Origin: an uncultured Ruminococcus sp.
GTDB taxonomy: Bacteria > Bacillota > Clostridia > Oscillospirales > CAG-272
Length of the DNA stretch: 64,000 nucleotides
Direction: 5' to 3'
Assembly: GCA_964629225.1 (NCBI GenBank)
Contig: CAZVQC010000007.1
Span: 1,675 to 65,674, forward strand
Part shown: positions 23,277 through 57,986 of the stretch, in pieces
How positions within the stretch are numbered: the stretch's first letter is position 1
Layout: the number at the start of each line of letters is the position of its first letter
Made by a program: the position numbers and the translations under genes
Notes under the pieces: generated by a model
The model's database searches: none
The model's input: the letters and a program-made list of their open reading frames with translations, nothing else
Told to the model about the DNA's origin: nothing

Positions 23277-23392
23277 TTTTATCTCCGTGCCGAAATGTTT
23301 TTATCATGGAGCAATAATGCTCCGGTAGTTACGATGCTTGCAGGGTCATTTGCCTAAGAAGTCAAGACGGAATGCGCGACATCCGTTACATT

Positions 23393-23421
23393 AGTATAGC
23401 ACCATTGTCGGACGGTGGCAA
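23393..23421 (-). promoter_or_regulatory. Predicted sigma-A promoter of the GGDEF gene
   Basis: On the minus strand: TTGCCA (23421-23416), 17-nt spacer, TATACT (23398-23393). AT-rich UP-like region upstream. Leader of about 115 nt. Confidence 0.5.
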
Positions 23422-23851
23422 TACCCTAGACAAATATTATCGAATAAAAATACAAAAAAATGTTGTTATTTACCTGTTATTGCCAAGCAAATTCCAGCTT
23501 TTGCATTTTATTCCCATCTGTTGGCATTTTTGATGGGCAACTGTAAAAAGGCGAATCTTGCAAGACGAAATTTGCTCTGTAATATGAGAGGCGTACATTG
23601 AGCGAAAACAGAATCCGGTCAGGTGGAGAAAGCGCAAAGCTCGGTCAAAGTATCCGGAGACCTTCTACGGTTCGCAGATGCTCGGATAGGTCGGTTAAGG
23701 CGGGTAAGCGACTCGGTGGTCGCCGATATGCAGGAGTCGGAACGGTTTGAAGGGACAGCCGACGTCAACGCTCTGTAAAGGGAATTTCAGCCCGTTTTCG
23801 GCGCTGCCGAGCTATGGGTGGTGATTCTCTCGCGGAGTCCAAGAATATCGC

Positions 23852-23903
23852 AAAAAAGCCGCTTTTAAGCGGCGAGAGACCGCCTTTGAATGAAGGCGGT
23901 CTC
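23852..23903 (-). terminator. Tandem hairpins / intrinsic terminator ending the riboswitch-controlled operon
   Basis: On the minus strand: GAGACCGCC-N-GGCGGTCTC, then GCCGC-TTAAAA-GCGGC followed by TTTTTTG. Confidence 0.7.
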
Positions 23904-23910
23904 CAATGTT

Positions 23911-23972
23911 ATTCGGCGCAGCTATTCGGCGCAGCTATTCGGCGCAGCTATTCGGCGCAGCTATTCGGCGGT
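23911..23972. repeat. 13-bp tandem repeat, 4 full copies plus a partial fifth, spanning the stop codon of the EAL gene
   Basis: ATTCGGCGCAGCT starts at 23911, 23924, 23937, 23950 and 23963 (the last is partial). The TAG stop (23935-23937) and the last 12 codons (DRRIAAPNSCAE) are made of repeat units. Confidence 0.9.
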
Positions 23973-25893
23973 CGGTAACGTCGCATCTTGAAAGTATCAA
24001 TTTTTCACACTCGGATATCGGGAGGACTCTTGCAATGTAGAAGCCTTGCATCATGTCGCATCCGATGCCGCGAAGAAAGTTTGACTGCTCGGCGTTCTCT
24101 ACTCCCTCACAGATTACCGTGGCACCGGAATTGTGGACGAGGGATACGATATCCCGAAGCATCTGACGGCGGCGGGATGTCTTGAATGAGGCGAGTAAGT
24201 CCTTCTCTATCTTGACGGTATCGATCTCGTTATCGTAGATGTCCGCAAGGGAGGAAAAACCCGCTCCCATGTCGTCGATCGCCACTTTGAATCCAAGTTT
24301 TTTTACGAATTCTATGTTCTTCGACACCGTGGCGGAATCGGTGCTTAGCAGATCCTCCGTGACCTCGATGACAAGGCGGCTGTGGGAAAAATTATATTCT
24401 GCCGCAATAGCGGAGATATTTTTTGCGTAGTCCTCTTTTGAAAAAGAGAGCCTTGTGAAATTGCAGGTGATAAAGAGCCTGTCAAGGGGCGGCTTTGACC
24501 AGCTTGCAAGCTTTTCACAGGCGGCCTTGAAGATCAAAAGGTCGTGCTCCACTATCATGCCCGTTCTGCTCAGGATCGGAATGTATTCGTGGGGGTGAAG
24601 GAGACCGTAGTCCCTGTTATGCCAGCGTGACAGCATCTCTCCACCGCAGAACCGGCCGTTCTTACAGTCGAAGATCAGTTGCATATAGGGGCGAAACTCT
24701 TCGTTTTCAAGGGCAGAGCTGAGTCCGGATGAGAGTTTTTGAGCCTTTTTGACCTCTGCTATCTGTTTGTCGGAGCCGAGGTGGTAGGGAAGGTCGTTTG
24801 CCTCGGCGTACAGGTAGCCCAGTTTCGCATTGTAGAGAAGTCTTTCCGTATCAGCCCCCGGATGCTCGCACATACGGCAGTATCCCGCTCTGAAGAGAGG
24901 AACCCGGTTCATGGCGAACTGAGCTACGTATTTGTTGACTCCCTCCACTGCTTCTGCGATCCGTCTCTCGGCGGTGTTTTCGTTTTCCGCCTGGTACAGG
25001 AAGGCAAAGACCCCGTTTCCGAGGTGGGCTACGTACTCGGTCGCAGCGGTGTAGCCGGTGAGTTTCACCGCAGCGTATTTTGCCGCATCCCGAAGGGAGA
25101 GTGTTGCCGAGAGCGCTTCAAGTGCCTTTTCGTCGATGCCGACATAAGCAAGACAGTAGAGTCCCCGTGACTGCTCCGAAATGAGGTTGCCGAGAACGTA
25201 ATTACAGTAGTCTCCGTTCCCCACTCCGGTATCCTCGTCTATCAGTGCATCAAGCTCGCTTGTGCGTCGGCTTTTTCGGATGACTGCGATAGCGGTGATG
25301 AGTACCGATATCATAACGGTGGCGGTAAGAGCGGAGATAAGAAGGATCCGCTGTGCGCGGGTCATATCCCTTCCTTCGGTGGCGGTATCGATGATGATAC
25401 CGGCCTTTTCATTATCCGGGATGGTCTGCAGAGCGCCTTCGATCTTATTTTTCAGTTCCACGGAGGCGATGGAGGTAAGACCGATGCCGTAGCTCACTGT
25501 TTCTCCGTTACGCTCGGCGGTTATGAAGGACACTTCTCTGACATTCGAAAAGGCCTCGCTTCCGATGACGATACCGGATACTATCTCCACCTGACCGTTT
25601 TTGACAAGGCTCTTCTGCCTGTTTTCGCTTCCCGAGGAGATGTAGGTGAAGTCGATGCCTGTAAGATCCGAGATCCTTTCAAGCATATCCGGGATAACGC
25701 CTTTGTATTCTCCGGTGTCTCTGTCATAATACTCTATCGGGTAGTTGTCGGGGTTCCCCGCAACGAACACGGAAACGGCGTTTCCTCCACCCGACGGCTC
25801 AGCCGTCACCGATGCCGAGACTCCGCTTGCCGATACGATCGCCACAAGAAGGGATATTGCGGCAATTACGGTCGCTTTAATACTTTTGTTCAT
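23935..25893 (-). CDS. Signal peptide, periplasmic solute-binding-like domain, TM, degenerate GGDEF, EAL domain protein (c-di-GMP phosphodiesterase or receptor)
   Basis: 652 aa. The GGDEF position reads HLGNGVFAF (degenerate). The EAL domain has EMLSRW (EAL position), IEVTED, AIDDMGAGFSSL and ICEGVENAEQ...MQGFY. Confidence 0.8.
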   Translation of the reverse strand: MNKSIKATVIAAISLLVAIVSASGVSASVTAEPSGGGNAVSVFVAGNPDNYPIEYYDRDTGEYKGVIPDMLERISDLTGIDFTYISSGSENRQKSLVKNGQVEIVSGIVIGSEAFSNVREVSFITAERNGETVSYGIGLTSIASVELKNKIEGALQTIPDNEKAGIIIDTATEGRDMTRAQRILLISALTATVMISVLITAIAVIRKSRRTSELDALIDEDTGVGNGDYCNYVLGNLISEQSRGLYCLAYVGIDEKALEALSATLSLRDAAKYAAVKLTGYTAATEYVAHLGNGVFAFLYQAENENTAERRIAEAVEGVNKYVAQFAMNRVPLFRAGYCRMCEHPGADTERLLYNAKLGYLYAEANDLPYHLGSDKQIAEVKKAQKLSSGLSSALENEEFRPYMQLIFDCKNGRFCGGEMLSRWHNRDYGLLHPHEYIPILSRTGMIVEHDLLIFKAACEKLASWSKPPLDRLFITCNFTRLSFSKEDYAKNISAIAAEYNFSHSRLVIEVTEDLLSTDSATVSKNIEFVKKLGFKVAIDDMGAGFSSLADIYDNEIDTVKIEKDLLASFKTSRRRQMLRDIVSLVHNSGATVICEGVENAEQSNFLRGIGCDMMQGFYIARVLPISECEKLILSRCDVTDRRIAAPNSCAE

Positions 25894-26440
25894 CGGCTTC
25901 GGTTTCCAATGCGGAGATCTTGCCTTCCGCTATTGAGAGCTTTGTTTCGGTCTCTTCAAGGACGGAAGAGATCTCGTTCTTAACTCTCGATACCTTTCTT
26001 GAGTACTCGGCAAGTCTTGCTTTTTCAAGTTCATTTTTCCTTCGGTTCTCTTCAATGAAGGCTTCGTTTTCACGGATGGACTTTTCTCTTAATATCCGTG
26101 CAAATTCCTTTGCCTCCGCTAACATCGCAGCGATCTCCTCGGCCAGGGCGAGCTGCTTATCCGTGTCGGTACGGTAGTTCTCGTTTTCCTCGGTCAGCTT
26201 TTTTATGAGGGCTTCTTTTTCGGTGATCTCTCTTTTGAGGACGTCATTTTCTCCCTCAAGACACATCAGCTTCTCGCTTAGCTCCGTGTTTTTTGCGTTG
26301 AGTTCCGAGATGGTCGACTGTCTGTCTTTTTTAGCGTCTTCGACCTTTTGGGAGCAGACTCGGTTAAGATCGGCAATGTACTCATAGACACTGCTTTTTT
26401 TGAACCCGAAAAGTCCGCTCTTCATATTATTCAGTTCCAT
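25877..26440 (-). CDS. Coiled-coil protein with DivIVA-like N-terminal motif
   Basis: 187 aa. GLFGFKKSSVYEYIADLN is followed by heptad-rich sequence. Its 3' end overlaps the next gene's start by 17 nt. Confidence 0.5.
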   Translation of the reverse strand: MELNNMKSGLFGFKKSSVYEYIADLNRVCSQKVEDAKKDRQSTISELNAKNTELSEKLMCLEGENDVLKREITEKEALIKKLTEENENYRTDTDKQLALAEEIAAMLAEAKEFARILREKSIRENEAFIEENRRKNELEKARLAEYSRKVSRVKNEISSVLEETETKLSIAEGKISALETEADEQKY

Positions 26441-26450
26441 TTTGATCTCC

Positions 26451-27854
26451 TTATTTGAAATTGATCTTTTTGCGCTCTATCCTTCCCCATTGCAGTTTCT
26501 TTCTTCTGTAGCCGACGAATGACAGCCCCCTGACCCAAGCAAGGATGAAGCGAAGGAAGGTTATCTCAAACAGACACAGAAGGCAGGCCTTAAGGGCATC
26601 CCCAAAGGAGACCTTCAAGTCCGATGTGTAGATGCGGGAGAAGAAGGCTGTCAGTGACAGAACGCTCCCGAACACCGCGTAAATGAGGAAGAACAGTATC
26701 ATGAACGGTACGTTGATCAGATCTACCAGATAGGCGAGCACCACGGTAAGTACTCCGAATATCTCGATGTAGGGTGACAAAAGCTCGTAGAGCAGAAAAT
26801 AGAAGTAGGAAATGAAGCTTACAACACCGAATTTCGGATTGAACAGTATCCTTCGGTGCTTGTGCATGCTTTGGAAAAGTCCCAAGTGCCACCGTTTTCG
26901 CTGCTTTTTTAAGTCCCTCATTGTCTCCGGTGCCTGAGTCCAGCAGATGGCATCGGTGGCATAGCAGATGCAGTAGTCCATGTTGTTGATCCGACAGTAT
27001 TCATGGAGCTTCACCACAAGTTCCATGTCCTCGCCGAGAGTATTGCTATCATACCCGCCGGCGGCTACCACCACGTCTTTCTTGAAAAGCCCGAAAGCAC
27101 CGGATATGATGAGCGAACCGTTGAATTTGTCAAACAGTATCCTCGATGCCAAGAAGGAGCGGTCATACTCCAGCACCTGCATGGCGGCAATGATGTTCCT
27201 TGGAAGGCGGTAGCTCTTTACTCGGCAATTCTCAAGTTCCACGTCGTTTGAGAGGCGGATGAGCCCGCCGACAGCCACCACGTTTTTCTTTTGCAAAATA
27301 GGCTCGGTTATGTTCTTGAGTGAATCGTATTGAAGTACCGAGTCCGCATCCATGCAGATAAAATAGGGATAGTTTGCCGCATTGATACCCATGTTAAGCG
27401 CATCTGCCTTGCCGCCGTTCTTTTTTCTTATGACGGTGAGAGGCACCTTCGTGTCCGAGGTCTCGTAGATGAACTCCTCCGGCTGACAGGATATCTGCCT
27501 TCGTATGGGGCGGTCTACCGGATGCATGGAAAAGGCGGTTATCACCTCCGATGCGGTGTTGTCCGTGGATCCGTCATCCACCACGATGATCTCATACAAT
27601 TTGTAATCAAGCTGCAAAAGTGACTTCACCGTTTCCACAACGGTCAATTCCTCATTGTAAGCGGGGACGACGATGGTTATCGGCACGAAGTAATCGCTTG
27701 GCAGGATGTTTTGAAGCTGCTTTTGCCTGTGGAGCTTGTAGAGCTCCGAGGAGCCCACCACCACCGACAGAAAGAGGAACGTGGAGTATCCTATGAGGTA
27801 GATGAGAAAAAATACCCCGACTCCTTTGAGAAACGGATCGATAAGACCTGTCAT
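26451..27854 (-). CDS. Processive family-2 glycosyltransferase (PgaC/IcaA/BcsA-like polysaccharide synthase)
   Basis: 467 aa with N- and C-terminal TM bundles. Motifs VVDDGSTDNT, CMDADS (DxD), LGEDMEL and QRKRW (QxxRW). No PilZ domain after the last TM. Confidence 0.85.
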   Translation of the reverse strand: MTGLIDPFLKGVGVFFLIYLIGYSTFLFLSVVVGSSELYKLHRQKQLQNILPSDYFVPITIVVPAYNEELTVVETVKSLLQLDYKLYEIIVVDDGSTDNTASEVITAFSMHPVDRPIRRQISCQPEEFIYETSDTKVPLTVIRKKNGGKADALNMGINAANYPYFICMDADSVLQYDSLKNITEPILQKKNVVAVGGLIRLSNDVELENCRVKSYRLPRNIIAAMQVLEYDRSFLASRILFDKFNGSLIISGAFGLFKKDVVVAAGGYDSNTLGEDMELVVKLHEYCRINNMDYCICYATDAICWTQAPETMRDLKKQRKRWHLGLFQSMHKHRRILFNPKFGVVSFISYFYFLLYELLSPYIEIFGVLTVVLAYLVDLINVPFMILFFLIYAVFGSVLSLTAFFSRIYTSDLKVSFGDALKACLLCLFEITFLRFILAWVRGLSFVGYRRKKLQWGRIERKKINFK

Positions 27855-28957
27855 ACCGTCACCTCCTTTCTTTCAAGTTCGCCTTTTTTGAGTTTGTACT
27901 GCAGTATCTCCGCCGCAAATCTGTCCTCTCCGTCAAGGACGTCCGCAAGCTCCGGATAGGTGATACCGAGTTTCTCAAGGCTGTCTGCGGAATTGTATCT
28001 GACGTACCAGTTTCCGCAGGTCAGATTGTGTTTCAGCAGTTCCACCGTTGTATCTCCCGGATAAGTCGCAAGAGCAGAGGAGGCAATGGCGGCGTATTGC
28101 CATTTGTCGCTGTCTCTAACGGAACTGAGGCGGCAGAGCGTCGCGTACGCCACGTCGTAGCGGTATTTTGCAAAGTAACGTATTGCGGAGTAGCGGAGCT
28201 CGTCGTCCTCACTTTCATCCTGCAGGATCGTGAAAACATACTCACAGTAGTCCGGCGAGGAAAAACGAATGAAGTTGAGGAGGACCACTCTCATCTCTGC
28301 CGAAAAAGAGTCAAACTCGGATATTATCAGATCGCTCAGCTCCTTGATACTTCCCATGAAATTGAGAAGGCCGTCCGTTATCAGCTTTCCGTGGTAGAAC
28401 AATCCGCTTCGGTCGATCCGCTTCAGTGCTTCTATCACGCAACCGCTGTCTCCGGTGGTGTAGAGCGCCTGCATCACGTTTTCACGGCAGTAGATACCGG
28501 GCTCATCCAAAAGGCTCAGAAGGATCCCGGTGATAGAGGGAAAGGCCCTGTTTGCGATAAGGCGGTATTTTTTTACTATGTAGGGGAAGTATGCCGCCTC
28601 TATCCTGCCTTTGCCGCTGTAAGTTACCGTAAGCGAGATGAAGACTCCGTCAAGCTCGGACAGGTAGAGCTTGACTGCATCGGCGTCCTCAAGATAGGCT
28701 CCTTCAAGCATCCGATCGAAGGCCACCATGTTACCTACCCGTTTTAATTTCGATCTTAAATACCTTTTGTGACGGTCGTCGCAGGGAAGCCCCTCTTTTA
28801 TTTTAAGGAGCTGATACTTGACCTCGGTGTAAAATCCTCGGCTCACCCGTTCGGTTCTCTTGTCACGGTGTTTTAGAAGGATCGCCGTGACGATGTTGAA
28901 AAGTATCATCGCAAGGCAGATGAACAGGTAGACGTAGATCATGGTCTCTACTTTCAT
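27851..28957 (-). CDS. Membrane-anchored HEAT/ARM-like repeat protein
   Basis: 368 aa with an N-terminal TM and repeated helical pairs (e.g. DDELRYSAIRYFAKY, NWYVRYNSADSLEKLG). ATGA overlaps at both ends. Confidence 0.5.
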   Translation of the reverse strand: MKVETMIYVYLFICLAMILFNIVTAILLKHRDKRTERVSRGFYTEVKYQLLKIKEGLPCDDRHKRYLRSKLKRVGNMVAFDRMLEGAYLEDADAVKLYLSELDGVFISLTVTYSGKGRIEAAYFPYIVKKYRLIANRAFPSITGILLSLLDEPGIYCRENVMQALYTTGDSGCVIEALKRIDRSGLFYHGKLITDGLLNFMGSIKELSDLIISEFDSFSAEMRVVLLNFIRFSSPDYCEYVFTILQDESEDDELRYSAIRYFAKYRYDVAYATLCRLSSVRDSDKWQYAAIASSALATYPGDTTVELLKHNLTCGNWYVRYNSADSLEKLGITYPELADVLDGEDRFAAEILQYKLKKGELERKEVTV

Positions 28958-31131
28958 TCCGCATCACCTCCCCAAAAGCTTTTCACATCGTAGTAGGATC
29001 TTTTGAGTCTCTCGTGAAAACTCACGTCGTTGCCCCATCCTTCAAGTTCAAAAAAGTCGAGTTCTACCCGCTCGGAGCTTCCCTGAGTTACTCCAACGTA
29101 GATGCCGTCGGTCTCGATGAATTCCACCCCGTAATTCCCGTCATAGTAGTCGTCGTGGATCATCATTCTCGAAGGGTCTCCGAAATTGAGAAGTTGCCAT
29201 GGGAGCTTCACCTCAATGTAGTCTCCCTTTGCGCAGAAATCCGCAAGGGAGTTAAAATCGTCGCTTTCCGGGTTGGCGTTACCGTATGTGAGTTTTCCGG
29301 TCTCAAAGGTCTTCGGAAGGAGATCGCTGCTGCCGGGAACGGAGATCTCGTTCTTACTTAGAATAAGGGCGATGCTTTTGAAGACCGGAGAGTCCTTGTC
29401 CGGAATAAAGCCGGTCTCGTAGGTGTTGAATTTGTAGATCTCTGCCGAATACGTGGAGCGGAGAGCCTCGTAGCGCTCCTGCACCAGAAGACGGCTGTTT
29501 TCGGCGCCGTCAATGACCAAAAGCAGGTCGGCGGCTCTGCCGAATTTGAGATGGAGATCTTCGGCGTAGTTGCTTCCGGTCTTTTGGATGGTGTCGATGG
29601 GAATGTAAAAGGTCTCATTTTCGAAGTCAAGACCGCTTTTTCTTATCATGAAGTAGAGATACTTCTCGTCGTATTTCATCGATACCGACACGCCCCCGTT
29701 TTCGGTCACGGTGTCGTCATCGTTCCACTCGGATACGTCACCGTCTACATAGGACACGGACTCATCATCGCCGGGATCGAAGGTCATTATGCCGAAGAAT
29801 TGCTCACTTGACTGGTAATCGGACCAATAGGGAGTTCTAATCAAGTCCACAGCATGAAGGACGTTCCACGTCCTCATGTACCACTCGTCATGCCATGAGA
29901 AGATGCAGCTTCCCGCACATCCCGCCTCCATGATATCGCGATAGCACTCTTCAAGAGCCTTTCCCTGACTGTCCTCGTTCATGGCGCTCTGACCCTGTCC
30001 GGCGCTCGCATTAAGACGGGACATCGTCCGACCGGTGGAAAAACCGAACTCGGATATCACCACCGGTATCGTGTGGTGGCTCGTAAGCATCGTAAGGTAG
30101 GCGCGGTAGGTATTCATTCCCTTCGACGAGGCGAATACGGTCTTATCAAGACCGTAGGGGCTCCAATCCTCCACGTAGGTCATGTAATCGGGGAAGTAGG
30201 GGTAGACGTGGTATGAAGCGAAGTGTCCTGACTTGAATTCCTCTGTGGGAAGGATGTGTTCCACGTCAATGTAGGCGCATTTTTTGATGACCGAGGTGTC
30301 GATAGTGGGATATTCGAAGGGGTCTGTGGTGGGCCAGTTTGAAAAAGCCATCAGTCTTTGAGCCCCATAGCGCTTCGTCTCGTATTCCGTCACCCCATCC
30401 GCCACTCTCGTAAGCATGGTTTCAAAGGGGGAGGCATCCGGGGAAGTCTTGAAGTATCTGCCGCTGTAGTTCAGCTTCGACTCATCGTCTCGGTATTTGT
30501 CGTCGGTGTAGGCCACCGTAAGTTCATCCCACTCCACACCCAGAATGTAGCCGATGACCCAATGGGAGATATCCTTAAGGTAACTTCCGTGGCCGGCGCT
30601 TGCCATCCTTCCGAGGGAGACTTTTCTGTTTCCGTGGATGATGTCCACCATTATTTTGCAGTCCTCAAGGAACGTGCCGTAAAAGTCCTCGTGGTAGGCA
30701 TCTCTGTAGGAGTTCACGACGTAGTCGTTGACCCAGACTCCGTGGAGAAGATACAGCGGTTCCTCTCTGCCGCTGTTGTACTCGTAAAATGCTTCGTAAA
30801 ACGGCTGAGATTGGATAGTGTAGATGCGCACCGTGTTGACGCCCATCTCTTGCATCAGCTCAAACCAACGGATATAGGTCTCCTTGTCGATGGCAAAGTC
30901 CGTGGACCATTCTCCCGGATACCCGGATCCAAGGTCGACACCTCTTATCTCAAAGGGGACAAAGTCGCCGTTTTCATCCTTCAAGAGGATCTCCTTCCCC
31001 TCGGCGGTGGCGTTGACCTCTATCTCGGAGAGTTGTAACAGCGGAATGTAGACGCCCACGTGAAAGTATAGGTAGTTTCCAAGCAGTACCGCAAGCAATA
31101 CGGATGCTACGATAATAATAAATTTCTTCAT
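28954..31131 (-). CDS. Membrane-anchored clan GH-A-like (TIM-barrel) glycoside hydrolase/transglycosylase with C-terminal beta-rich domain
   Basis: 725 aa with an N-terminal TM. FEIRGVDLG...GVNTVRIYT (beta-strands 1 and 2 of a GH-A barrel) and VVISEFGFSTG (candidate nucleophile Glu). The family is not assignable by eye. Confidence 0.5.
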   Translation of the reverse strand: MKKFIIIVASVLLAVLLGNYLYFHVGVYIPLLQLSEIEVNATAEGKEILLKDENGDFVPFEIRGVDLGSGYPGEWSTDFAIDKETYIRWFELMQEMGVNTVRIYTIQSQPFYEAFYEYNSGREEPLYLLHGVWVNDYVVNSYRDAYHEDFYGTFLEDCKIMVDIIHGNRKVSLGRMASAGHGSYLKDISHWVIGYILGVEWDELTVAYTDDKYRDDESKLNYSGRYFKTSPDASPFETMLTRVADGVTEYETKRYGAQRLMAFSNWPTTDPFEYPTIDTSVIKKCAYIDVEHILPTEEFKSGHFASYHVYPYFPDYMTYVEDWSPYGLDKTVFASSKGMNTYRAYLTMLTSHHTIPVVISEFGFSTGRTMSRLNASAGQGQSAMNEDSQGKALEECYRDIMEAGCAGSCIFSWHDEWYMRTWNVLHAVDLIRTPYWSDYQSSEQFFGIMTFDPGDDESVSYVDGDVSEWNDDDTVTENGGVSVSMKYDEKYLYFMIRKSGLDFENETFYIPIDTIQKTGSNYAEDLHLKFGRAADLLLVIDGAENSRLLVQERYEALRSTYSAEIYKFNTYETGFIPDKDSPVFKSIALILSKNEISVPGSSDLLPKTFETGKLTYGNANPESDDFNSLADFCAKGDYIEVKLPWQLLNFGDPSRMMIHDDYYDGNYGVEFIETDGIYVGVTQGSSERVELDFFELEGWGNDVSFHERLKRSYYDVKSFWGGDAE

Positions 31132-31144
31132 TAGCCTCCTCCTT

Positions 31145-32626
31145 TTACTGCTCGTGGGTCTCGTGGGATCCGTGGGTCTTCGATGCGGCTGAATACTGTT
31201 TCAGACTTTCGATGTTTTCATCCATCCACCTGACCCGTTCATTAAGACAGTTCCTCATTTGGGCGAGGGCATCGTCGTAGCTTCTTAAGTTGCGTTCCTT
31301 TGGAATGAGTCGGTCTTCGCTTTCTTCAAATGAGTAGCCCCACACTTCGAAATTGCGATCGACGGCATCTCCCAGCCACGCGACCGTTTCGTCAATGTAG
31401 GCGTTGAGGTTTTCATCGGAAAGTACCGTCGTTCGCAGATATTTGTAGCGGTCTATCACCCTTTCGGTGAAATCTTCATCTTGGATGATCCTGTCGAACC
31501 AGACGGTACTGAACATGGAAAAACCGGTCGTGGGGTTGTCGGTCTCCTCGTAGTTGTCAAGGGCGTTGTTGAAATCCCACACGCACATTTTGTACTTCCT
31601 GTCCACGTCCTTGTAGATGTAGGTGGAGTAATAACCGGCATCTCTGTTGAGGGCGACTTCGTTGATTATGAAGTAGTCTACGAAGGAGTCCACATCGACG
31701 GTGCTCTTGTAGCCCCTTTTGTCATCGAAATCGTAGGAGTACAGAGCCTTTTCGAAATCGGAAAACTCAAGCTCGATATTCCGTATCAACTCAGTATCGA
31801 GGGATGACAGCCCCGGAGAAACTACGTTGATCAAGTTGTCTGTCTGCAGCGTGTAGATGCTGAAGGGGGCGATGTTTTTGATCCCGGTGTCGCTACCTCG
31901 GTCGTGCCTCAGTATGTAACCGGAGAAGGTGTTGCGCTTCTCAGTGGTGGACAGCTTTATTCTGGCGTCCTCGTCTCCTGCCGTAACGGTCTCCGTCATA
32001 AGGTAGAGTCCCTTGTACTCCCCGTTTATTATCAGCTCGCAAAAGCGGACATTCGGAGAGTAGTCCATGATCTCTCCCGCCAGATTGTACCACATATAGT
32101 TGCGTATCAGAGTCTTGTCGAGAAACGGCCCGTGAAGAGCCCATTCGTGATGGGCGGCCATGCCCATCATCTCTCGGTCGTTGTTGGTGCCGTCTTTGTT
32201 GACAAGTTCAATGAGATACGGCAGTTTGTCAAAGAATCTGGAGGAGTTTCCTCTGATCCTGATGCGGATGTCGCTTGAGAGGGTAGCCTTGTCGGAGGGG
32301 TGATTGTTTCCCTTTTTCGAGTCGATAACGTCCGCTGTTGCCGCAATAGTTTTGTTTCCGTCCTCCGCCATGCCGTGAAGTACCTTCCCGGATCCGGGGT
32401 CCAGGTAGGCTTCTCCCGGGATCTCAACTCCTCCGGTATCTATCTTGATTATCGGAAGGTGGGTGCAAAGGGAGGTGTCCGGGCAGACGTCACAGGGTGA
32501 GTAGCCCGATTCCATACGGTGTTGAACGTACCTTTCCTTTTCGCCGTCCGAAAAGATCCACGCACCGCCGATAACGGCAGATACCGCAAGTATCAACGCA
32601 ACGGCTCCTATCAGCTTGTATTTCAA
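31145..32626 (-). CDS. cotH: CotH kinase family protein with N-terminal signal anchor
   Basis: 493 aa with a TTG start preceded by AAGGAG. CotH-like core (LHGPFLDKTLIRNYMWYNLAGEIM...FCELIINGEYKGLYLMTETV...WDFNNALDNY). Confidence 0.75.
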   Translation of the reverse strand: MKYKLIGAVALILAVSAVIGGAWIFSDGEKERYVQHRMESGYSPCDVCPDTSLCTHLPIIKIDTGGVEIPGEAYLDPGSGKVLHGMAEDGNKTIAATADVIDSKKGNNHPSDKATLSSDIRIRIRGNSSRFFDKLPYLIELVNKDGTNNDREMMGMAAHHEWALHGPFLDKTLIRNYMWYNLAGEIMDYSPNVRFCELIINGEYKGLYLMTETVTAGDEDARIKLSTTEKRNTFSGYILRHDRGSDTGIKNIAPFSIYTLQTDNLINVVSPGLSSLDTELIRNIELEFSDFEKALYSYDFDDKRGYKSTVDVDSFVDYFIINEVALNRDAGYYSTYIYKDVDRKYKMCVWDFNNALDNYEETDNPTTGFSMFSTVWFDRIIQDEDFTERVIDRYKYLRTTVLSDENLNAYIDETVAWLGDAVDRNFEVWGYSFEESEDRLIPKERNLRSYDDALAQMRNCLNERVRWMDENIESLKQYSAASKTHGSHETHEQ

Positions 32627-32641
32627 ACCATGCTCCTTGTA

Positions 32642-33319
32642 TCAGTTCGATATCTCGTCGTTCTGCATCACCACGTTGACGTATTCTACCTTGCCCGCTT
32701 TGTAGAGGCTGTCGGTGATGCCGCCTTCTGCTTTTTCCGCCTTGCGGATCATTTTTTGAGTCACCTCATAGATCAGCTCCACAGTCTCGGATGTTGTGTT
32801 TTCCACTCGGAGTATCGCCTTCCCGGAAAAAAGTTTGTAGATGAGGGATTTTATTATGGGCGTGCAGCCTCTGTCGGCACGAATTATGATGAGCATCCTG
32901 TTGTCGTTTTTGATGCATCCCAGTATCAGTATCACAAGGAAGACCACTGCACTTCCGATGGAGGCGACAAGAAAGTCTCCGACACCGCAGCATATGCCGA
33001 TTATGATTGCCCAGAAAATGTAGACAGTGTCTCTTGAGTCCTTGATGGCCGTTCTGAAACGGACGATGGACAGAGCACCCACCATACCGAGGGACAGCGC
33101 AATGTTATTTCCGATAACTGTCATGACGGTGCCTGTGAGCACTGTGAGGATGACGAGGGAGGCGTTGAATTTCTTGCTGTAGATAGTACCTCTGTGGGAG
33201 ATGAAATAGGATATGAAGATGAAAAATCCCAGCACCGCAGAGGCGGTGATATTCATCAGTATGTTCTCCCATGTCATGTCGCTTGGGTTGGTGAAAAGTT
33301 GGTAGATCTGTTCTCTCAT
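32642..33319 (-). CDS. DUF4956-like polytopic membrane protein
   Basis: 225 aa, 4-5 TM helices followed by a roughly 90-aa soluble C-terminal domain. As I recall, DUF4956 is the usual neighbour of bacterial VTC-domain proteins. Confidence 0.6.
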   Translation of the reverse strand: MREQIYQLFTNPSDMTWENILMNITASAVLGFFIFISYFISHRGTIYSKKFNASLVILTVLTGTVMTVIGNNIALSLGMVGALSIVRFRTAIKDSRDTVYIFWAIIIGICCGVGDFLVASIGSAVVFLVILILGCIKNDNRMLIIIRADRGCTPIIKSLIYKLFSGKAILRVENTTSETVELIYEVTQKMIRKAEKAEGGITDSLYKAGKVEYVNVVMQNDEISN

Positions 33320-33341
33320 GTCTTTTTCTCCTTATTAATTA

Positions 33342-34037
33342 TTATAATCTTGTTTGATAGCCGTTTTGACGGGCCAGAACGTATTTGCTCACCGACAACT
33401 CGCTCCTGTTTGCCGGATCGATGAGTTCTCTTATGTATCCGAGCAAAAAGCCGTTGAACTTCACTTCCAGCACCACGTCGTATTTGTCTAACACCGGAAC
33501 CATGTTAAGGCGGGGATCGAACAGGTCGAAACTGCTCTCGGTGGCTACGATGTTGTTGTCGAATGTGACTCTTATTTTGTTCTCCTTGGCGATGAAGGCC
33601 TTTCTGTTGTATTCCACCACCGTTTTTGGTCGGTATGCACGGCAGTGCATCAGTCCGTAACACTCTGCGGCAAACGGCTCTCTGTATTTGAGCAGAGGGG
33701 AATAATTGCCGCGGGTCAGTTCCGTCGCATCCTCGCGGGATATCCTTAAGGAGCGCTTCATCTGATTTGCCCCTTGTTTTTGTTTCATTTCAAGCATGGC
33801 AAAGTCGCCGTTCGGATCGTAGCACCTGAGGCGGATCTTCCGTCTCAGCTCCACTCCGTCCAGCTTTTCGAAGTAGTCCCCGTCGTAAGCAGTGTCAAAA
33901 TACAGCGATCGGATGCGGTAGCCGTGAGTACCGTTGTGGGGATCACTCAGCATCACCTGCTCCACTCTGTGGGAGAGGGCGATGAACTCGTCTATGCTGA
34001 GAAGAAATTTTTTCTCCTCTCTGAGTACCTTATTCAC
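33342..34037 (-). CDS. VTC-domain / triphosphate tunnel metalloenzyme (polyphosphate-polymerase-like) protein
   Basis: N-terminal REEKKFLL (ExExK-type strand) and alternating charged beta-strands (IRLRCY, LEMKQK, VEYNRKAF, IRVTFD, VLEVKF). The start is reassigned to GTG 34037, which has AGGAGG 6 nt upstream. The ORF-track ATG at 34070 lies inside the terminator hairpin loop. Confidence 0.7.
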   Translation of the reverse strand: MNKVLREEKKFLLSIDEFIALSHRVEQVMLSDPHNGTHGYRIRSLYFDTAYDGDYFEKLDGVELRRKIRLRCYDPNGDFAMLEMKQKQGANQMKRSLRISREDATELTRGNYSPLLKYREPFAAECYGLMHCRAYRPKTVVEYNRKAFIAKENKIRVTFDNNIVATESSFDLFDPRLNMVPVLDKYDVVLEVKFNGFLLGYIRELIDPANRSELSVSKYVLARQNGYQTRL

Positions 34038-34050
34038 AAAACACCTCCTG

Positions 34051-34161
34051 AAAATAAAAACCGACCGCACCTTTTTTGAAGAAATGCGGTCAGTCGGTCA
34101 TACGGATCTCTCCGCTTAGATACTTAACTTTGCGTCCCATCCTTTCGAATGGTTTGCCCTT
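34051..34161 (-). promoter_or_regulatory. c-di-GMP-I (GEMM-I) riboswitch aptamer plus intrinsic terminator expression platform
   Basis: The minus strand reads AAGGGCAAACCAUUCGAAAGGAUGGGACGCAAAGUUAAGUAUCUAAGCGGAGAGAUCCGUAUGACCGAC.
- GGCAAACC, then a 6-bp hairpin with a GAAA loop, then GGGACGCAAAG.
- Second helix CGGA-GAGA-UCCG flanked by UCUAAG/UAUGA, an 11-nt tetraloop-receptor type.
- Terminator ACCGACUGACCGCA-N15-UGCGGUCGGU-UUUUAUUUU (34052-34098). Confidence 0.8.
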
Positions 34162-35388
34162 TTATTCGGTTTTCTGTTTTTCTGCCTTCAAAAAGGCTTC
34201 GAATTCATGCGCCGGCATGGGACGGCTGAAATAATACCCCTGCATTTGCGAGCATCCGAAATCACGGAGCATCTCTGCCTGCTCCAAGGTCTCAACTCCC
34301 TCCGCTATGACCGAGAGGTCAAGTTTTTTTGCCATGTTGATGACCGAGGACAGGATAGTTTGGCTTTTCTTTGAATTGTCGGAGGATGAGAGAAATCTCA
34401 TGTCAAGCTTCAATTTGTCGATGCTGATGTCCTTCAGCAGATTGAGGGAGGAATATCCGGAACCGAAATCGTCCATCTCCACCTTGAATCCTGCTTTCCG
34501 AAGGTCACCTACCACACTTATCAATCTGTCTGCATCGTCGATGTAGGAGCTTTCCGTGATCTCAATGTGGATGGCGGAATGGGGAAGGCCGTTCTTTTCG
34601 GTGATGTCATTAAGTGCGCCGCACAGCCCGTCAAAGAAGACGTTGTTCCGCGAGAGATTGACGGATATGTGGACGCTGTCGTCGCAGATGCCGTCGCGCC
34701 TCCATTTTGCCATGTAACGGCAGACTCTGTCAAAAACGTATTCGTCAAGAATTCCGATACATCCGGTGCTCTCAAACAGCGGAATGAAATCCATGGGAGG
34801 GATGATGCCTCTACCGGGATGATCCCACCTGACAAGCGCCTCGGCTCCGATGATGTTTCCGCTTTCAAAATTGAATTGAGGCTGAAACCAGATGTCGAAT
34901 TGCCCCTCGTCTATTGCTTTCTTGAAGCCGTCAAGAAGCTCTTTTTTATCCTCGCTGATCTTGCCGAATGCCGCATCCGTCACGTCAATGCACTCCATAA
35001 GGATGACATTTCGGTCCGGGTCGAGGTACCGGTAGGAAAATTCCTTGCAAACAACTCTTTTATCGGCGCCGGAGGCCAAGGTGAGATCCACCGTGTAGCG
35101 CTCCCTTTTTTCAAGCTCCGATCTTACCGTGGAAAGGAGGATAGCCCGTTCAACGGCGATCCTTTCCGTCTCCATGAGAGAGCCTCTTGCGGTCTTCACG
35201 ACCTGCTCATCGTAGGTCTCCCCATCGTGCTTGCGGACTTTCTTCTCCCTGCCGAACGCTATCTCAAGGACATTATTCACTTTTTCCGTATTGCAGTCAA
35301 TAAGCAGGATCTCTTCAAACGATCCGGTAATGAGACTGCAAACTAATTTGTCCCTGTCAATGCGGTTTACGATATCGTCATTTGACAC
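34162..35388 (-). CDS. EAL-domain c-di-GMP phosphodiesterase with uncharacterised N-terminal domain
   Basis: 408 aa. GTG start with GGAGG 9 nt upstream. Motifs GAEALVRW, NLSRNN, IEITES, EMDDFGSGYSSL, KLKLD and AEGVETLEQ...MQGYY, so all catalytic motifs appear present. Confidence 0.85.
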   Translation of the reverse strand: MSNDDIVNRIDRDKLVCSLITGSFEEILLIDCNTEKVNNVLEIAFGREKKVRKHDGETYDEQVVKTARGSLMETERIAVERAILLSTVRSELEKRERYTVDLTLASGADKRVVCKEFSYRYLDPDRNVILMECIDVTDAAFGKISEDKKELLDGFKKAIDEGQFDIWFQPQFNFESGNIIGAEALVRWDHPGRGIIPPMDFIPLFESTGCIGILDEYVFDRVCRYMAKWRRDGICDDSVHISVNLSRNNVFFDGLCGALNDITEKNGLPHSAIHIEITESSYIDDADRLISVVGDLRKAGFKVEMDDFGSGYSSLNLLKDISIDKLKLDMRFLSSSDNSKKSQTILSSVINMAKKLDLSVIAEGVETLEQAEMLRDFGCSQMQGYYFSRPMPAHEFEAFLKAEKQKTE

Positions 35389-35526: not shown

Positions 35527-35555
35527 ATTCTATCACATAAGGAGGGAAAACTCAA
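35527..35555 (-). promoter_or_regulatory. Predicted sigma-A promoter of the EAL gene (and probably of the riboswitch operon)
   Basis: On the minus strand: TTGAGT (35555-35550), 17-nt spacer, TAGAAT (35532-35527), with TGTGA as extended -10. Confidence 0.55.
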
Positions 35556-57694: not shown

Positions 57695-57728
57695 AAAAGG
57701 TCGGGCAAAGCATTTTGCCCGACCTTTT
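57695..57728. terminator. Bidirectional intrinsic terminator
   Basis: AAAAGGTCGGGCAAA-GCAT-TTTGCCCGACCTTTT, a perfect 15-bp stem with symmetric A and T runs. Confidence 0.85.
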
Positions 57729-57729
57729 A

Positions 57730-57934
57730 ATATCCGCTGTGCCGTGTGATACGAGAAGTAAAAACCCTGCTTTCGCAAGGCGGGATCCTCACCGTTGCTT
57801 TGTGCTACCAACATCCGAGGAGGCGCGTCACGCAGAGGCGCCGTCGGGAGGTCTGCATACCCGCTTTCGGAATTCGGAGCCCTTTTATCAATTGTGGGTC
57901 TTAGGTCTCGCATTATCACGAACACAGCAGATAT
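57730..57934 (-). ncRNA. Candidate about 205-nt structured sRNA with 6S-RNA-like architecture
   Basis: The 5' arm AUAUCUGCUGUGUUCGUGAUAAUGCGAGA (57934-57906) pairs with the 3' arm UCUCGUAUCACACGGCACAGCGGAUAU (57756-57730). This gives 14+6+5 bp, including 3 G-U pairs that exist only on the minus strand. The centre is GC-rich with internal hairpins. A terminator follows immediately, and a TATTAT element lies about 7 nt upstream. Confidence 0.45.
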
Positions 57935-57986
57935 CACTGTTATAATATGCTGTTTTTTTGAGGGGATACCTCATTTTCGAAAATAA

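What the first reader, a model, noticed from the sequence alone, without database searches (positions are those of the whole stretch)
34051..34161. GEMM-I (c-di-GMP-I) riboswitch hidden in the 124-nt gap between an EAL gene and the VTC/CotH/GT2 operon
**What the sequence shows.** The minus strand between the TAA of the EAL gene (34162-34164) and the GTG of the VTC-domain gene (34037) reads:

5'-AAAAGGGCAAACCAUUCGAAAGGAUGGGACGCAAAGUUAAGUAUCUAAGCGGAGAGAUCCGUAUGACCGACUGACCGCAUUUCUUCAAAAAAGGUGCGGUCGGUUUUUAUUUUCAGGAGG-3'

- GGCAAACC, then a 6-bp hairpin CCAUUC/GGAUGG closed by a GAAA tetraloop, then GGGACGCAAAG.
- A second helix CGGA-GAGA-UCCG bracketed by UCUAAG...UAUGA. This is the 11-nt GAAA tetraloop-receptor pattern (CCUAAG/UAUGG type).
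- A terminator hairpin followed by UUUUUAUUUU, then AGGAGG-6 nt-GTG.

**What is established.** GGCAAAC...GNRA hairpin...GGGACGCAAAG plus a tetraloop receptor is the invariant core of the GEMM-I class. As I recall it, the V. cholerae Vc2 aptamer reads GGGCAAACCAUUCGAAAGAGUGGGACGCAAAGCC.

**What I infer.** The 5' arm of the terminator (ACCGACUGACCGCA) overlaps the 3' edge of the aptamer (GACCGAC). Ligand binding should therefore disfavour the terminator, making this a c-di-GMP ON switch.
Basis: partly seen in the sequence, partly recalled or inferred. Interest (0 to 1): 0.72.

Follow-up and report, generated by a model that had tools for sequence, protein, structure and literature searches.

The report
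Ordinary c-di-GMP riboswitch, probable ON switch
The 124-base gap holds a textbook class I c-di-GMP riboswitch that most likely lets transcription run into a ten-kilobase cell-surface polymer operon when the signal molecule c-di-GMP is high; the RNA class and its design are well known, so the finding is correct but ordinary.

Summary
Rfam's c-di-GMP-I model (RF01051) matches window 34168..34082 on the minus strand over its full length, at 68.5 bits against a gathering score of 35 (E 2.7e-11).

- **Defining features.** All that could be tested are present: the 2+6 bp P1 hairpin with a GAAA loop, the AAA linker, P2 with a tetraloop receptor, and G20, A47 and C92.
- **Conservation.** The same leader sits about 110-190 nt upstream of the orthologous VTC gene in 67 of 80 related Clostridia loci, with abundant compensatory changes.
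- **Terminator.** A 14-bp stem (34095-34082 with 34072-34059) plus a U-tract shares its 5' arm with the P2 3' strand and C92. Both alternative helices covary, and some shared columns covary three ways. This is the "terminator competes with P2" design already described for 78 of 322 GEMM RNAs, which predicts an ON switch.
- **Regulated unit.** It is a nine-gene operon: VTC, DUF4956, CotH, a 725-aa protein, HEAT, a PgaC-like GT2, a 187-aa protein and a 652-aa EAL-domain protein. Its core order matches C. perfringens NELoc-2.
- **Local peculiarity.** The aptamer starts 3 nt after an intact EAL gene with no recognisable promoter between them, so EAL transcripts must meet the switch.

Verdict: new member of a known kind, low to moderate interest.

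The parts
34082..34168 (-). c-di-GMP-I (GEMM-I) aptamer, full-length Rfam RF01051 match
   Evidence: 68.5 bits against a gathering score of 35, E 2.7e-11, model positions 1-87 of 87. RNAalifold recovers the same fold independently.
34132..34157 (-). P1 hairpin (Weinberg nomenclature): 2-bp stem G34157-C34132 and C34156-G34133, internal loop AAA/GAC, 6-bp stem CCAUUC (34152-34147) with GGAUGG (34142-34137), GAAA tetraloop 34146-34143
   Evidence: All 6 pairs of the long stem show compensatory changes in 62 leaders, with 97% of cells paired. The 2-bp stem has one GC-to-CG flip, in L049.
34158..34158 (-). G20 equivalent, the specificity nucleotide (G for c-di-GMP, A for cGAMP or bispecific binding)
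   Evidence: Aligned to model position 11. It is G in 56 and A in 6 of 62 distinct leaders. Its role is described in PMC6140456.
34129..34131 (-). AAA linker between P1 and P2; A34131 is the A47 equivalent
   Evidence: A47 and A48 are invariant in 62 of 62 leaders, and the third linker A is among the invariant columns of the alignment. PMC1950547 states the linker is virtually always AAA.
34088..34129 (-). P2 hairpin with the GAAA tetraloop receptor (UCUAAG 34120-34115 and UAUGA 34102-34098) and inner stem CGGA-GAGA-UCCG (34114-34103)
   Evidence: The P2 outer helix has 91.5% of cells paired and 4 pairs with compensatory change; the inner stem has 87% paired and 4 of 4 pairs compensatory.
34086..34086 (-). 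C92 equivalent, which Watson-Crick pairs with the second guanine of the ligand; it lies inside the terminator 5' arm
   Evidence: alignment. Invariant in 62 of 62 leaders. Its role is described in PMC6140456.
34051..34095 (-). Intrinsic terminator: 14-bp stem 34095-34082 with 34072-34059, 9-nt loop, U-tract UUUUUAUUUU 34060-34051. The 5' arm shares 34095-34088 with the P2 3' strand
   Evidence: It appears in the minimum-free-energy fold; pair list. Across leaders 88.6% of cells are paired and 8 of 14 pairs are compensatory. In 54 of 62 leaders an independently folded hairpin starts inside P2, includes C92 and is followed by at least 5 U.
34035..34049 (-). Shine-Dalgarno AGGAGG (34049-34044) and GTG start codon (34037-34035) of the VTC gene
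   Evidence: The start codon column is aligned in all 62 leaders as GTG, TTG or ATG. Gene callers on independent assemblies give the same 231-aa product.
23935..34037 (-). Regulated operon: VTC (33342-34037), DUF4956 (32642-33319), CotH (31145-32626), 725-aa protein (28954-31131), HEAT-repeat protein (27851-28957), PgaC/IcaA-like GT2 (26451-27854), 187-aa protein (25877-26440), SBP_bac_3 + EAL 652-aa protein (23935-25893)
   Evidence: ORFs; Pfam and NCBIfam hits. Genes are closely spaced or overlapping. Terminator-like hairpins lie at 23903-23858. VTC-DUF4956-CotH-p725 is conserved in the 80 loci wherever the contig extends far enough.
34162..35388 (-). Upstream EAL-domain gene (408 aa, catalytic motifs intact); its stop codon lies 3 nt from G19/G20 of the aptamer
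   Evidence: Pfam EAL at 8e-70. The translation shows EALVRW, DDFGSGYSS and EGVE. No terminator or consensus promoter lies between it and the aptamer.
35527..35555 (-). Candidate sigma-70 promoter of the EAL gene (TTGAGT-17-TG-TAGAAT), downstream of the terminator of the preceding hydrolase gene (35685-35658)
   Evidence: This is a consensus match only (9 of 12 positions), not evidence of function.

Best explanation
This is a canonical class I c-di-GMP riboswitch (GEMM-I, tetraloop-receptor type) that works as a transcriptional ON switch.

**Proposed mechanism.**
1. RNA polymerase transcribes the leader, and P1 and P2 fold and dock through the GAAA loop and its receptor.
2. If c-di-GMP is bound (G34158, A34131 and C34086 contacting the ligand), the P2 3' strand and C92 stay locked in the aptamer. 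The terminator 5' arm is then unavailable, and polymerase reads through into the nine-gene VTC/DUF4956/CotH/.../GT2/.../EAL operon.
3. Without ligand, the much more stable terminator hairpin strips the P2 3' strand out of the aptamer, and transcription stops at the U-tract 34060-34051.
4. The decision must be kinetic, made in the roughly 30 nt between synthesis of P2 and of the terminator 3' arm.

**Shown:** family membership by score and features; conservation in 67 of 80 orthologous loci; covariation of both mutually exclusive helices; the overlap between them.

**Inferred:** ligand identity (from G at position 20), polarity, and kinetic control.

**Also inferred:** no promoter is recognisable between the EAL stop codon and the aptamer. 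EAL-gene transcripts therefore run into the switch, and its terminator is the only one that could end them.
For: - Rfam RF01051 scores 68.5 bits against a gathering score of 35 over the full model.
- An independent RNAalifold consensus gives the same fold.
- Aptamer pairs: 93.1% of cells paired, 15 of 22 pairs with changes on both sides, 0 of 500 shuffles reaching the observed value, and slid controls at 17-46% paired.
- Terminator pairs: 88.6% paired, 8 of 14 pairs with changes on both sides, and slid controls at 21-45%.
- Three-way covariation of shared columns: columns 47/115/165 read U-A-U 40 times and C-G-C 17 times; columns 51/113/167 read A-U-A 25 times and G-C-G 19 times.
- G20 is G; A47 and C92 are invariant in 62 of 62 leaders. 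The roles of G20 and C92 are given in PMC6140456.
- In 54 of 62 leaders an independently folded terminator starts inside P2, includes C92 and is followed by at least 5 U.
- Energies: the aptamer fold is -16.1 kcal/mol and the terminator-containing minimum-free-energy fold is -37.4 kcal/mol.
- The same architecture and predicted polarity are described for 78 of 322 GEMM RNAs (PMC1950547).
- The downstream genes, including a PgaC/IcaA-like synthase (1e-44), fit the usual link between high c-di-GMP and surface-polymer production.
- GGDEF or EAL genes flank the leader in the window and in at least 23 orthologous loci.
Against: - There is no experimental datum for this RNA or any orthologue: binding, termination and the transcription start are all untested.
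- In Clostridioides difficile, the best-studied clostridial case, class I riboswitches act as OFF switches (PMC11477304), so polarity cannot be assumed from the class.
- The nearest-neighbour model does not make the aptamer the most stable fold even before the terminator 3' arm is made (-20.2 against -16.1 kcal/mol). That model omits tertiary and ligand energy.
- A closing helix at the base of the three-way junction is only marginal (GAAU 34167-34164 with AUUU 34085-34082) and is not evident in the orthologues.
- The covariation controls do not remove phylogenetic relatedness, and many of the 62 leaders are close relatives.
Confidence: 0.8

Rival explanations
1. The aptamer is genuine, but the switch has the opposite or a different logic. 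It could be an OFF switch, as the class I riboswitches of C. difficile are, or it could control translation through the AGGAGG site.
For: Class I riboswitches in C. difficile are transcriptional OFF switches (PMC11477304). The minimum-free-energy fold places a weak hairpin over the Shine-Dalgarno and start region.
Against: - An OFF switch needs the terminator to form alongside the bound aptamer. Here the terminator 5' arm is the P2 3' strand plus C92, so the two cannot coexist.
- No separate anti-terminator element was identified.
- The hairpin over the Shine-Dalgarno site is weak, and that region is not conserved in sequence or spacing apart from the site itself.
- The U-tract lies 13 nt upstream of the start codon, so termination precedes any translational step.
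Confidence: 0.07
2. The hairpin and U-tract are simply the intrinsic terminator of the EAL gene, and the aptamer is a decaying relic that no longer regulates anything in this genome.
For: The aptamer begins 3 nt after the EAL stop codon with no recognisable promoter between them. The EAL neighbour is unique to this lineage among the 80 loci. Some relatives have lost or remodelled the aptamer: L035, L036 and L038 keep only the terminator 3' arm, and L060 and L064 lack the core.
Against: - Every ligand-contacting and structural position is intact, and the score (68.5 bits) is as high as or higher than that of promoter-proximal orthologues.
- The overlapping leader sequence is 100% identical in six independent assemblies.
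- The terminator is orthologous to the one attached to the aptamer in 60 or more genomes that have no EAL gene upstream.
- Being the EAL terminator and being a conditional terminator are compatible roles.
Confidence: 0.06
3. The aptamer senses 3',3'-cGAMP, or both dinucleotides, rather than c-di-GMP alone.
For: Eleven of 67 orthologous leaders carry A at position 20. That is the change which makes Vc2 bispecific and marks cGAMP riboswitches. A Clostridium beijerinckii A20 aptamer is bispecific (PMC6140456).
Against: The window's RNA has G at position 20 (34158). Wild-type Vc2, which also has G20, binds c-di-GMP with picomolar affinity and cGAMP at about 10 uM (PMC6140456). The locus is surrounded by EAL and GGDEF genes.
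Confidence: 0.03

Closest known systems
GEMM / c-di-GMP-I riboswitches with a terminator overlapping P2 (Weinberg et al. 2007, PMC1950547; Rfam RF01051)
   Same: - The 2+6 bp P1 with a GNRA loop, the AAA linker, and P2 with the 11-nt-type receptor when the loop is GAAA.
[quoted passage not shown]
- The predicted polarity: more ligand gives more expression.
- All of these features are present here.
   Different: - Nothing differs in kind.
- The receptor carries a U-A pair where the classic motif has C-G (UCUAAG/UAUGA). This is the majority form in this clade (59 of 62 leaders).
- The downstream gene families (VTC, DUF4956, CotH, GT2) are not in that paper's Table 2 of recurrent GEMM-associated families.
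Vibrio cholerae Vc2 aptamer, the structural reference for class I
   Same: G20, A47 and C92 equivalents, the GAAA tetraloop, the receptor, and the GGCAAAC...GACGCAAAG core. The positions are assigned through the Rfam alignment and the numbering given in PMC6140456.
   Different: - Vc2 has a defined closing helix below the junction. Here only a marginal 4-bp AU-rich pairing is possible.
- In most orthologues the promoter lies so close (-10 box ending 11-20 nt before G20) that a long closing helix cannot exist.
Clostridioides difficile class I c-di-GMP riboswitches (for example upstream of flgB and zmpI)
   Same: The same aptamer class in Clostridia, with transcription termination as the output (PMC11477304).
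   Different: Those are OFF switches that repress motility and protease genes. This one has the aptamer-versus-terminator overlap that predicts ON, a role that C. difficile gives to class II riboswitches.
Clostridium perfringens NELoc-2, a necrotic-enteritis-associated locus (Lepp et al. 2010, PMC2879425)
   Same: The same gene order as the regulated operon: VTC domain, a roughly 225-aa membrane protein (there annotated 'tubulin/FtsZ'; the corresponding gene here is a DUF4956 protein), CotH, a 685-aa hypothetical protein, a HEAT-repeat protein, and a chitin-synthase-like GT2 (one search compared).
   Different: This comparison concerns the cargo, not the RNA. No riboswitch has been reported for NELoc-2 in the held literature, and I could not fetch that DNA to test it. 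A Planococcus plasmid copy of the cluster has no Rfam riboswitch.

Membership tests
c-di-GMP-I riboswitch (GEMM-I, Rfam RF01051) | Covariance-model score at or above the curated gathering score, over the full model | tested here: met
   68.5 bits against 35, E 2.7e-11, model positions 1-87 of 87.
c-di-GMP-I riboswitch (GEMM-I, Rfam RF01051) | [quoted passage not shown] | tested here: met
   The 2-bp stem is GC/GC and the 6-bp stem is CCAUUC/GGAUGG, with an AAA internal loop and a GAAA cap. All six long-stem pairs covary in 62 leaders.
c-di-GMP-I riboswitch (GEMM-I, Rfam RF01051) | AAA linker between P1 and P2 | tested here: met
   AAA at 34131-34129. The three columns are invariant in the alignment.
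c-di-GMP-I riboswitch (GEMM-I, Rfam RF01051) | P2 hairpin carrying a tetraloop receptor when the P1 loop is GAAA | tested here: met
   UCUAAG (34120-34115) and UAUGA (34102-34098) flank a 4-bp stem. P2 pairs are 87-92% paired and show compensatory changes.
c-di-GMP-I riboswitch (GEMM-I, Rfam RF01051) | Ligand-contacting nucleotides G20, A47 and C92 | tested here: met
   G34158, A34131 and C34086 by alignment to the model. A47 and C92 are invariant in 62 of 62 leaders; position 20 is G in 56 of 62. The roles of G20 and C92 are given in PMC6140456; the intercalating role of A47 is from memory.
c-di-GMP-I riboswitch (GEMM-I, Rfam RF01051) | Closing helix at the base of the three-helix junction (P1 in crystal-structure nomenclature) | tested here: inconclusive
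   Only GAAU (34167-34164) with AUUU (34085-34082) is possible, read by eye. It is not part of the Rfam model. In most orthologues the promoter leaves only about 4-13 nt before G20.
c-di-GMP-I riboswitch (GEMM-I, Rfam RF01051) | 5' regulatory position relative to a gene on the same strand | tested here: met
   The aptamer ends 45 nt before the GTG at 34037. The same position is kept in 67 of 80 orthologous loci.
c-di-GMP-I riboswitch (GEMM-I, Rfam RF01051) | Selective, high-affinity binding of c-di-GMP | not testable with these tools
   Requires in-line probing, ITC or a similar assay.
Transcriptional ON platform (terminator competing with P2) | Intrinsic terminator (GC-rich stem plus U-tract) between the aptamer and the start codon | tested here: met
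   A 14-bp stem with UUUUUAUUUU, present in 54 of 62 leaders by independent folding.
Transcriptional ON platform (terminator competing with P2) | The terminator 5' arm shares nucleotides with the aptamer, so the two folds exclude each other | tested here: met
   34095-34088 belongs to both helices, and C92 (34086) lies in the terminator arm. Both helices covary, and the shared columns covary three ways.
Transcriptional ON platform (terminator competing with P2) | More read-through with ligand | not testable with these tools
   Requires single-round transcription, Term-seq or reporter assays.
cGAMP riboswitch (GEMM-Ib) | Adenine at the position equivalent to Vc2 G20 | tested here: not met
   Position 34158 is G. 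A is found only in 11 orthologous loci, not in the window.
c-di-GMP-II riboswitch (RF01786) | Match to the class II covariance model | tested here: not met
   No hit in the window at the gathering threshold.

The most novel reading that the evidence does not exclude
In this lineage the riboswitch may act as an intra-operonic checkpoint rather than a 5' leader.

- **Layout.** The aptamer starts 3 nt after an intact c-di-GMP phosphodiesterase (EAL) gene, with no recognisable promoter between them. Every EAL transcript must therefore end at, or read through, the riboswitch terminator.
- **What c-di-GMP would decide.** It would set whether the phosphodiesterase mRNA stays monocistronic or extends into a 10-kb operon. 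That operon resembles NELoc-2, probably makes a surface polymer, and itself ends in a second EAL-domain gene.
- **Resulting circuit.** Signal degradation and signal output would be wired into one transcript, forming a feedback loop.
- **Relatives.** They carry a diguanylate cyclase gene at the same position (at least 23 loci). Some of these also have no promoter in between, and two (L009, L037) have no riboswitch at all.
- **Wider implication.** If true, the uncharacterised VTC/DUF4956/CotH/GT2 cluster, and by extension C. perfringens NELoc-2, would be a c-di-GMP output in gut Clostridia.
Probability: 0.35. Interest if true: 0.45.

Novelty: new member of a known kind. Interest (0 to 1): 0.3.

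Why it matters
The RNA itself adds nothing conceptually new. Class I c-di-GMP riboswitches and the design in which a terminator competes with P2 have been known since 2007/2008.

The modest value lies in what the switch points to:

- **It marks the cluster as a c-di-GMP output.** The conserved, functionally uncharacterised VTC-DUF4956-CotH-(~700 aa)-HEAT-GT2 cluster carries this leader in 67 of 80 related Clostridia genomes.
- **It suggests a lead for a pathogen locus.** The cluster has the same gene order as the necrotic-enteritis-associated NELoc-2 of C. perfringens. That gives a testable regulatory handle on a locus whose role is unknown.
- **It offers a natural comparative series.** The upstream position holds an EAL gene, a GGDEF gene or a promoter. 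Position 20 is G or A. Some aptamers are lost or remodelled. The series could be used to study how second-messenger circuits are rewired.

Tried and rejected
- **Terminator scan.** I did not take this as evidence of absence, since folding finds it.
- **Conserved EAL-riboswitch pairing.** I looked for it and found none: tblastn with the EAL protein hits none of the 80 orthologous loci. The neighbour there is usually a GGDEF gene or a promoter.
- **Promoter between EAL and the aptamer.** None was found within 90 nt (best score 5 of 12). The only consensus match lies 546 nt upstream inside the EAL gene (34733-34704), and that is no more than chance predicts.
- **Assembly chimera at the EAL/aptamer junction.** Rejected, because five independent assemblies carry it, and all six retrieved contigs match the leader exactly where they overlap.
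- **Literature.** No paper in the held library links GEMM-I to VTC, CotH, DUF4956 or NELoc-2. The CotH hit in PMC4448311 concerns the B. subtilis cotH leader and is irrelevant.
- **Papers not available.** Sudarsan 2008 and Smith 2009 are not held. The Vc2 sequence string was not found in any held text, so the claimed Vc2 identity stays unverified.
- **Plasmid copies of the cluster.** The Planococcus and Pseudobutyrivibrio copies carry no Rfam riboswitch at E <= 0.1.
- **Not attempted.** I did not build my own covariance model or Rfam-score the 56 motif-positive loci one by one. They are supported by the alignment and the covariation counts instead.

Full report
**1. Observation.**
- A cmscan of the whole 64-kb window against Rfam 15 gives two hits above gathering score. 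One is c-di-GMP-I (RF01051) at 34168..34082 on the minus strand: 68.5 bits against a threshold of 35, E 2.7e-11, all 87 model positions aligned at maximal posterior probability. The other is an unrelated 6S RNA at 57936..57727.
- The element is therefore real, sits at the stated place, and is far beyond chance.
- The junction is not an assembly artefact. Look-up of the exact VTC protein returned six contigs from six different sequencing runs. Five carry the same EAL-124 nt-VTC arrangement, and all six match the window's leader base for base where they overlap; the sixth contig begins inside the aptamer.

**2. Anatomy (window coordinates, minus strand).**
- G20 equivalent: 34158.
- P1: a 2-bp stem (G34157-C34132, C34156-G34133), an AAA internal loop, and a 6-bp stem CCAUUC/GGAUGG (34152-34147 with 34142-34137) capped by GAAA.
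- AAA linker: 34131-34129, whose first A is the A47 equivalent.
- P2: 34129-34088. It carries the receptor halves UCUAAG (34120-34115) and UAUGA (34102-34098) around CGGA-GAGA-UCCG.
- C92 equivalent: 34086.
- These assignments follow the Rfam alignment, the founding description of GEMM (PMC1950547) and the Vc2 numbering explained in PMC6140456.
- Downstream, ViennaRNA places a 14-bp stem (34095-34082 with 34072-34059, 9-nt loop) followed by UUUUUAUUUU, then AGGAGG, 6 nt and GTG.
- The pattern scanner missed the terminator only because its loop limit is 8 nt.

**3. Context.**
- Upstream lies a 408-aa EAL protein (Pfam 8e-70) with its catalytic motifs intact: EALVRW, DDFGSGYSS and EGVE.
- Downstream, closely spaced or overlapping on the same strand, lie these genes:
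  - VTC
  - DUF4956
  - CotH
  - a 725-aa protein without family assignment
  - a HEAT-repeat protein
  - a GT2 closest to PgaC/IcaA (1e-44, below the equivalog cut-off)
  - a 187-aa protein
  - a 652-aa SBP_bac_3 + EAL protein
- Terminator-like hairpins follow at 23903-23858. A separate dCache-GGDEF gene with its own promoter-like site comes next.
- The six-gene core has the same order as C. perfringens NELoc-2 (PMC2879425) and as a Planococcus maritimus plasmid cluster.

**4. Comparative evidence.**
- A scan of one genome per species for the VTC protein returned 80 loci at 70-91% identity. Nearly all are gut or rumen Clostridia MAGs labelled Oscillospiraceae, Acutalibacteraceae, Ruminococcus and similar. 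Wherever the contig extends far enough, they carry VTC-DUF4956-CotH-p725.
- A GEMM-I aptamer lies about 110-190 nt upstream of the VTC start in 67 of the 80 loci. Of these, 56 were found by core motif and alignment and 11 more by Rfam at 58-75 bits.
- On an alignment of the window plus 61 distinct orthologous leaders:
  - The Rfam-derived aptamer structure has 93.1% of cells paired and 15 of 22 pairs with changes on both sides. None of 500 column shuffles reaches the observed values, and slid controls give 17-46% paired.
  - RNAalifold, run without the Rfam model, predicts the same P1 and P2.
  - The terminator helix has 88.6% of cells paired and 8 of 14 pairs with changes on both sides, against 21-45% for slid controls.
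- Columns that belong to both helices covary with both partners. Columns 47/115/165 read U-A-U in 40 leaders and C-G-C in 17. Columns 51/113/167 read A-U-A in 25 and G-C-G in 19.
- I folded each leader on its own from the P2 3' strand onward. In 54 of 62 the first hairpin starts inside P2, includes C92 and is followed by at least 5 U in 9 nt.
- Caveat: many leaders are closely related, and the shuffle control does not remove phylogeny, so these numbers show consistency rather than independent events.

**5. Mechanism.**
- The aptamer and the terminator cannot coexist, because 34095-34088 belongs to both and C92 lies in the terminator arm.
- The terminator-containing fold is about 21 kcal/mol more stable than the aptamer fold in the nearest-neighbour model (-37.4 against -16.1). 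A bound aptamer can therefore only win kinetically, while polymerase covers the roughly 30 nt to the U-tract.
- Ligand binding should thus prevent termination, making this an ON switch.
- This is precisely the model proposed for the 78 of 322 GEMM RNAs whose terminators overlap P2 (PMC1950547).
- It differs from the C. difficile class I examples, which are OFF switches (PMC11477304). No arrangement compatible with OFF logic is visible here.
- G at position 20 predicts c-di-GMP rather than cGAMP (PMC6140456).
- My confidence is about 0.97 that this is a GEMM-I aptamer, about 0.9 that c-di-GMP is the ligand, and about 0.8 for the whole statement including polarity.

**6. What is particular to this window.**
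- In most orthologues a strong sigma-70 promoter lies just upstream, of the form TTGACA-17-TATAAT with the -10 box ending 11-20 nt before G20.
- In the window and its closest relatives (L002-L007) there is none. In the window, L003 and L006 the upstream ORF stops only 3-16 nt before the aptamer.
- In the window that ORF is the EAL gene. The EAL gene has a promoter-like site of its own (35555-35527) downstream of the preceding gene's terminator.
- EAL transcripts must therefore reach the riboswitch, and its terminator is the only one available to them. Whether an unrecognised internal promoter also feeds the switch cannot be decided from sequence.
- In at least 23 other loci the upstream gene is a GGDEF gene. 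In L009 and L037 a GGDEF gene abuts VTC with no riboswitch at all.
- The operon is thus tied to c-di-GMP enzymes in several ways, but the EAL neighbour itself is lineage-specific.

**7. Comparison, novelty and score.**
- Every defining feature of GEMM-I that could be tested is met. The junction-closing helix is inconclusive, and ligand binding cannot be tested here.
- The expression platform is a described type.
- I found no paper in the held library that links a c-di-GMP riboswitch to VTC, CotH, DUF4956 or NELoc-2. These families are also absent from the original table of recurrent GEMM-associated genes. The regulon link may therefore be unreported, but it is an incremental annotation.
- Verdict: new member of a known kind, interest about 0.3.

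Noticed in passing
L015, L017, L018, L019, L039, L042, L046, L047, L073, L077, L079 (aptamer about 115-150 nt upstream of the VTC start in each): Eleven of the 67 orthologous leaders have A instead of G at the specificity position 20 (UUAGCAAAC). They occur on at least two different aptamer backgrounds, upstream of the same operon. G20A in Vc2 and a C. beijerinckii A20 aptamer are bispecific for c-di-GMP and cGAMP (PMC6140456), so these may be bispecific sensors.
   Followed up: partly
L060:3830-4000 and L064:3830-4000 (Hominicoprocola fusiformis; Oscillibacter sp. MSJ-31): The leader keeps the promoter, a receptor-like P2 3' half (UAUGAUCGACCGACCGCA) and the terminator. The GGCAAAC...GACGCAAAG core is replaced by unrelated sequence, and there is no Rfam hit even at E <= 1. 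It is either a decayed aptamer or one with altered specificity.
   Followed up: partly
L003, L006, L013, L014, L016, L020, L023-L034 and others (ORF ending 4-243 nt upstream of the aptamer); L009 and L037: A GGDEF (diguanylate cyclase) gene lies immediately upstream of the leader on the same strand in at least 23 loci. In L009 and L037 the GGDEF gene abuts VTC with no riboswitch. The window has an EAL gene at this position instead.
   Followed up: partly
L002, L004, L007, about 40-50 nt upstream of the aptamer: Runs of 9-13 G lie at the 3' end of the upstream GGDEF-like reading frame in three different MAGs, and the frame is broken there. This could be a slippage-prone (phase-variable) tract or a sequencing or assembly error.
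   Followed up: no
window 23935-34037 (-); L081 (Planococcus maritimus plasmid NZ_CP059541.1, 5389-12824): The regulated core VTC-DUF4956-CotH-(~700 aa)-HEAT-GT2 has the same gene order as C. perfringens NELoc-2 (PMC2879425). It also occurs on a Planococcus plasmid without any Rfam riboswitch. In a Pseudobutyrivibrio plasmid (L082), CotH-VTC-DUF4956 sits inside a polysaccharide biosynthesis cluster.
   Followed up: partly
window 21843-25893 (-): The operon ends with a 652-aa SBP_bac_3 + EAL protein and is followed by a dCache-GGDEF gene with its own promoter-like site (23421-23393). With the upstream EAL gene, that makes three c-di-GMP turnover or receptor genes within 14 kb.
   Followed up: partly
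window 57727-57936 (-): 6S (SsrS) RNA, Rfam RF00013, 54.3 bits against a gathering score of 46.4.
   Followed up: no
L035, L036, L038 (about 60 nt upstream of the VTC start): Only the terminator 3' arm and U-tract (UGCAGCCGGUUUUU) remain and the aptamer is gone, which suggests deletion or replacement of the riboswitch in these genomes.
   Followed up: no
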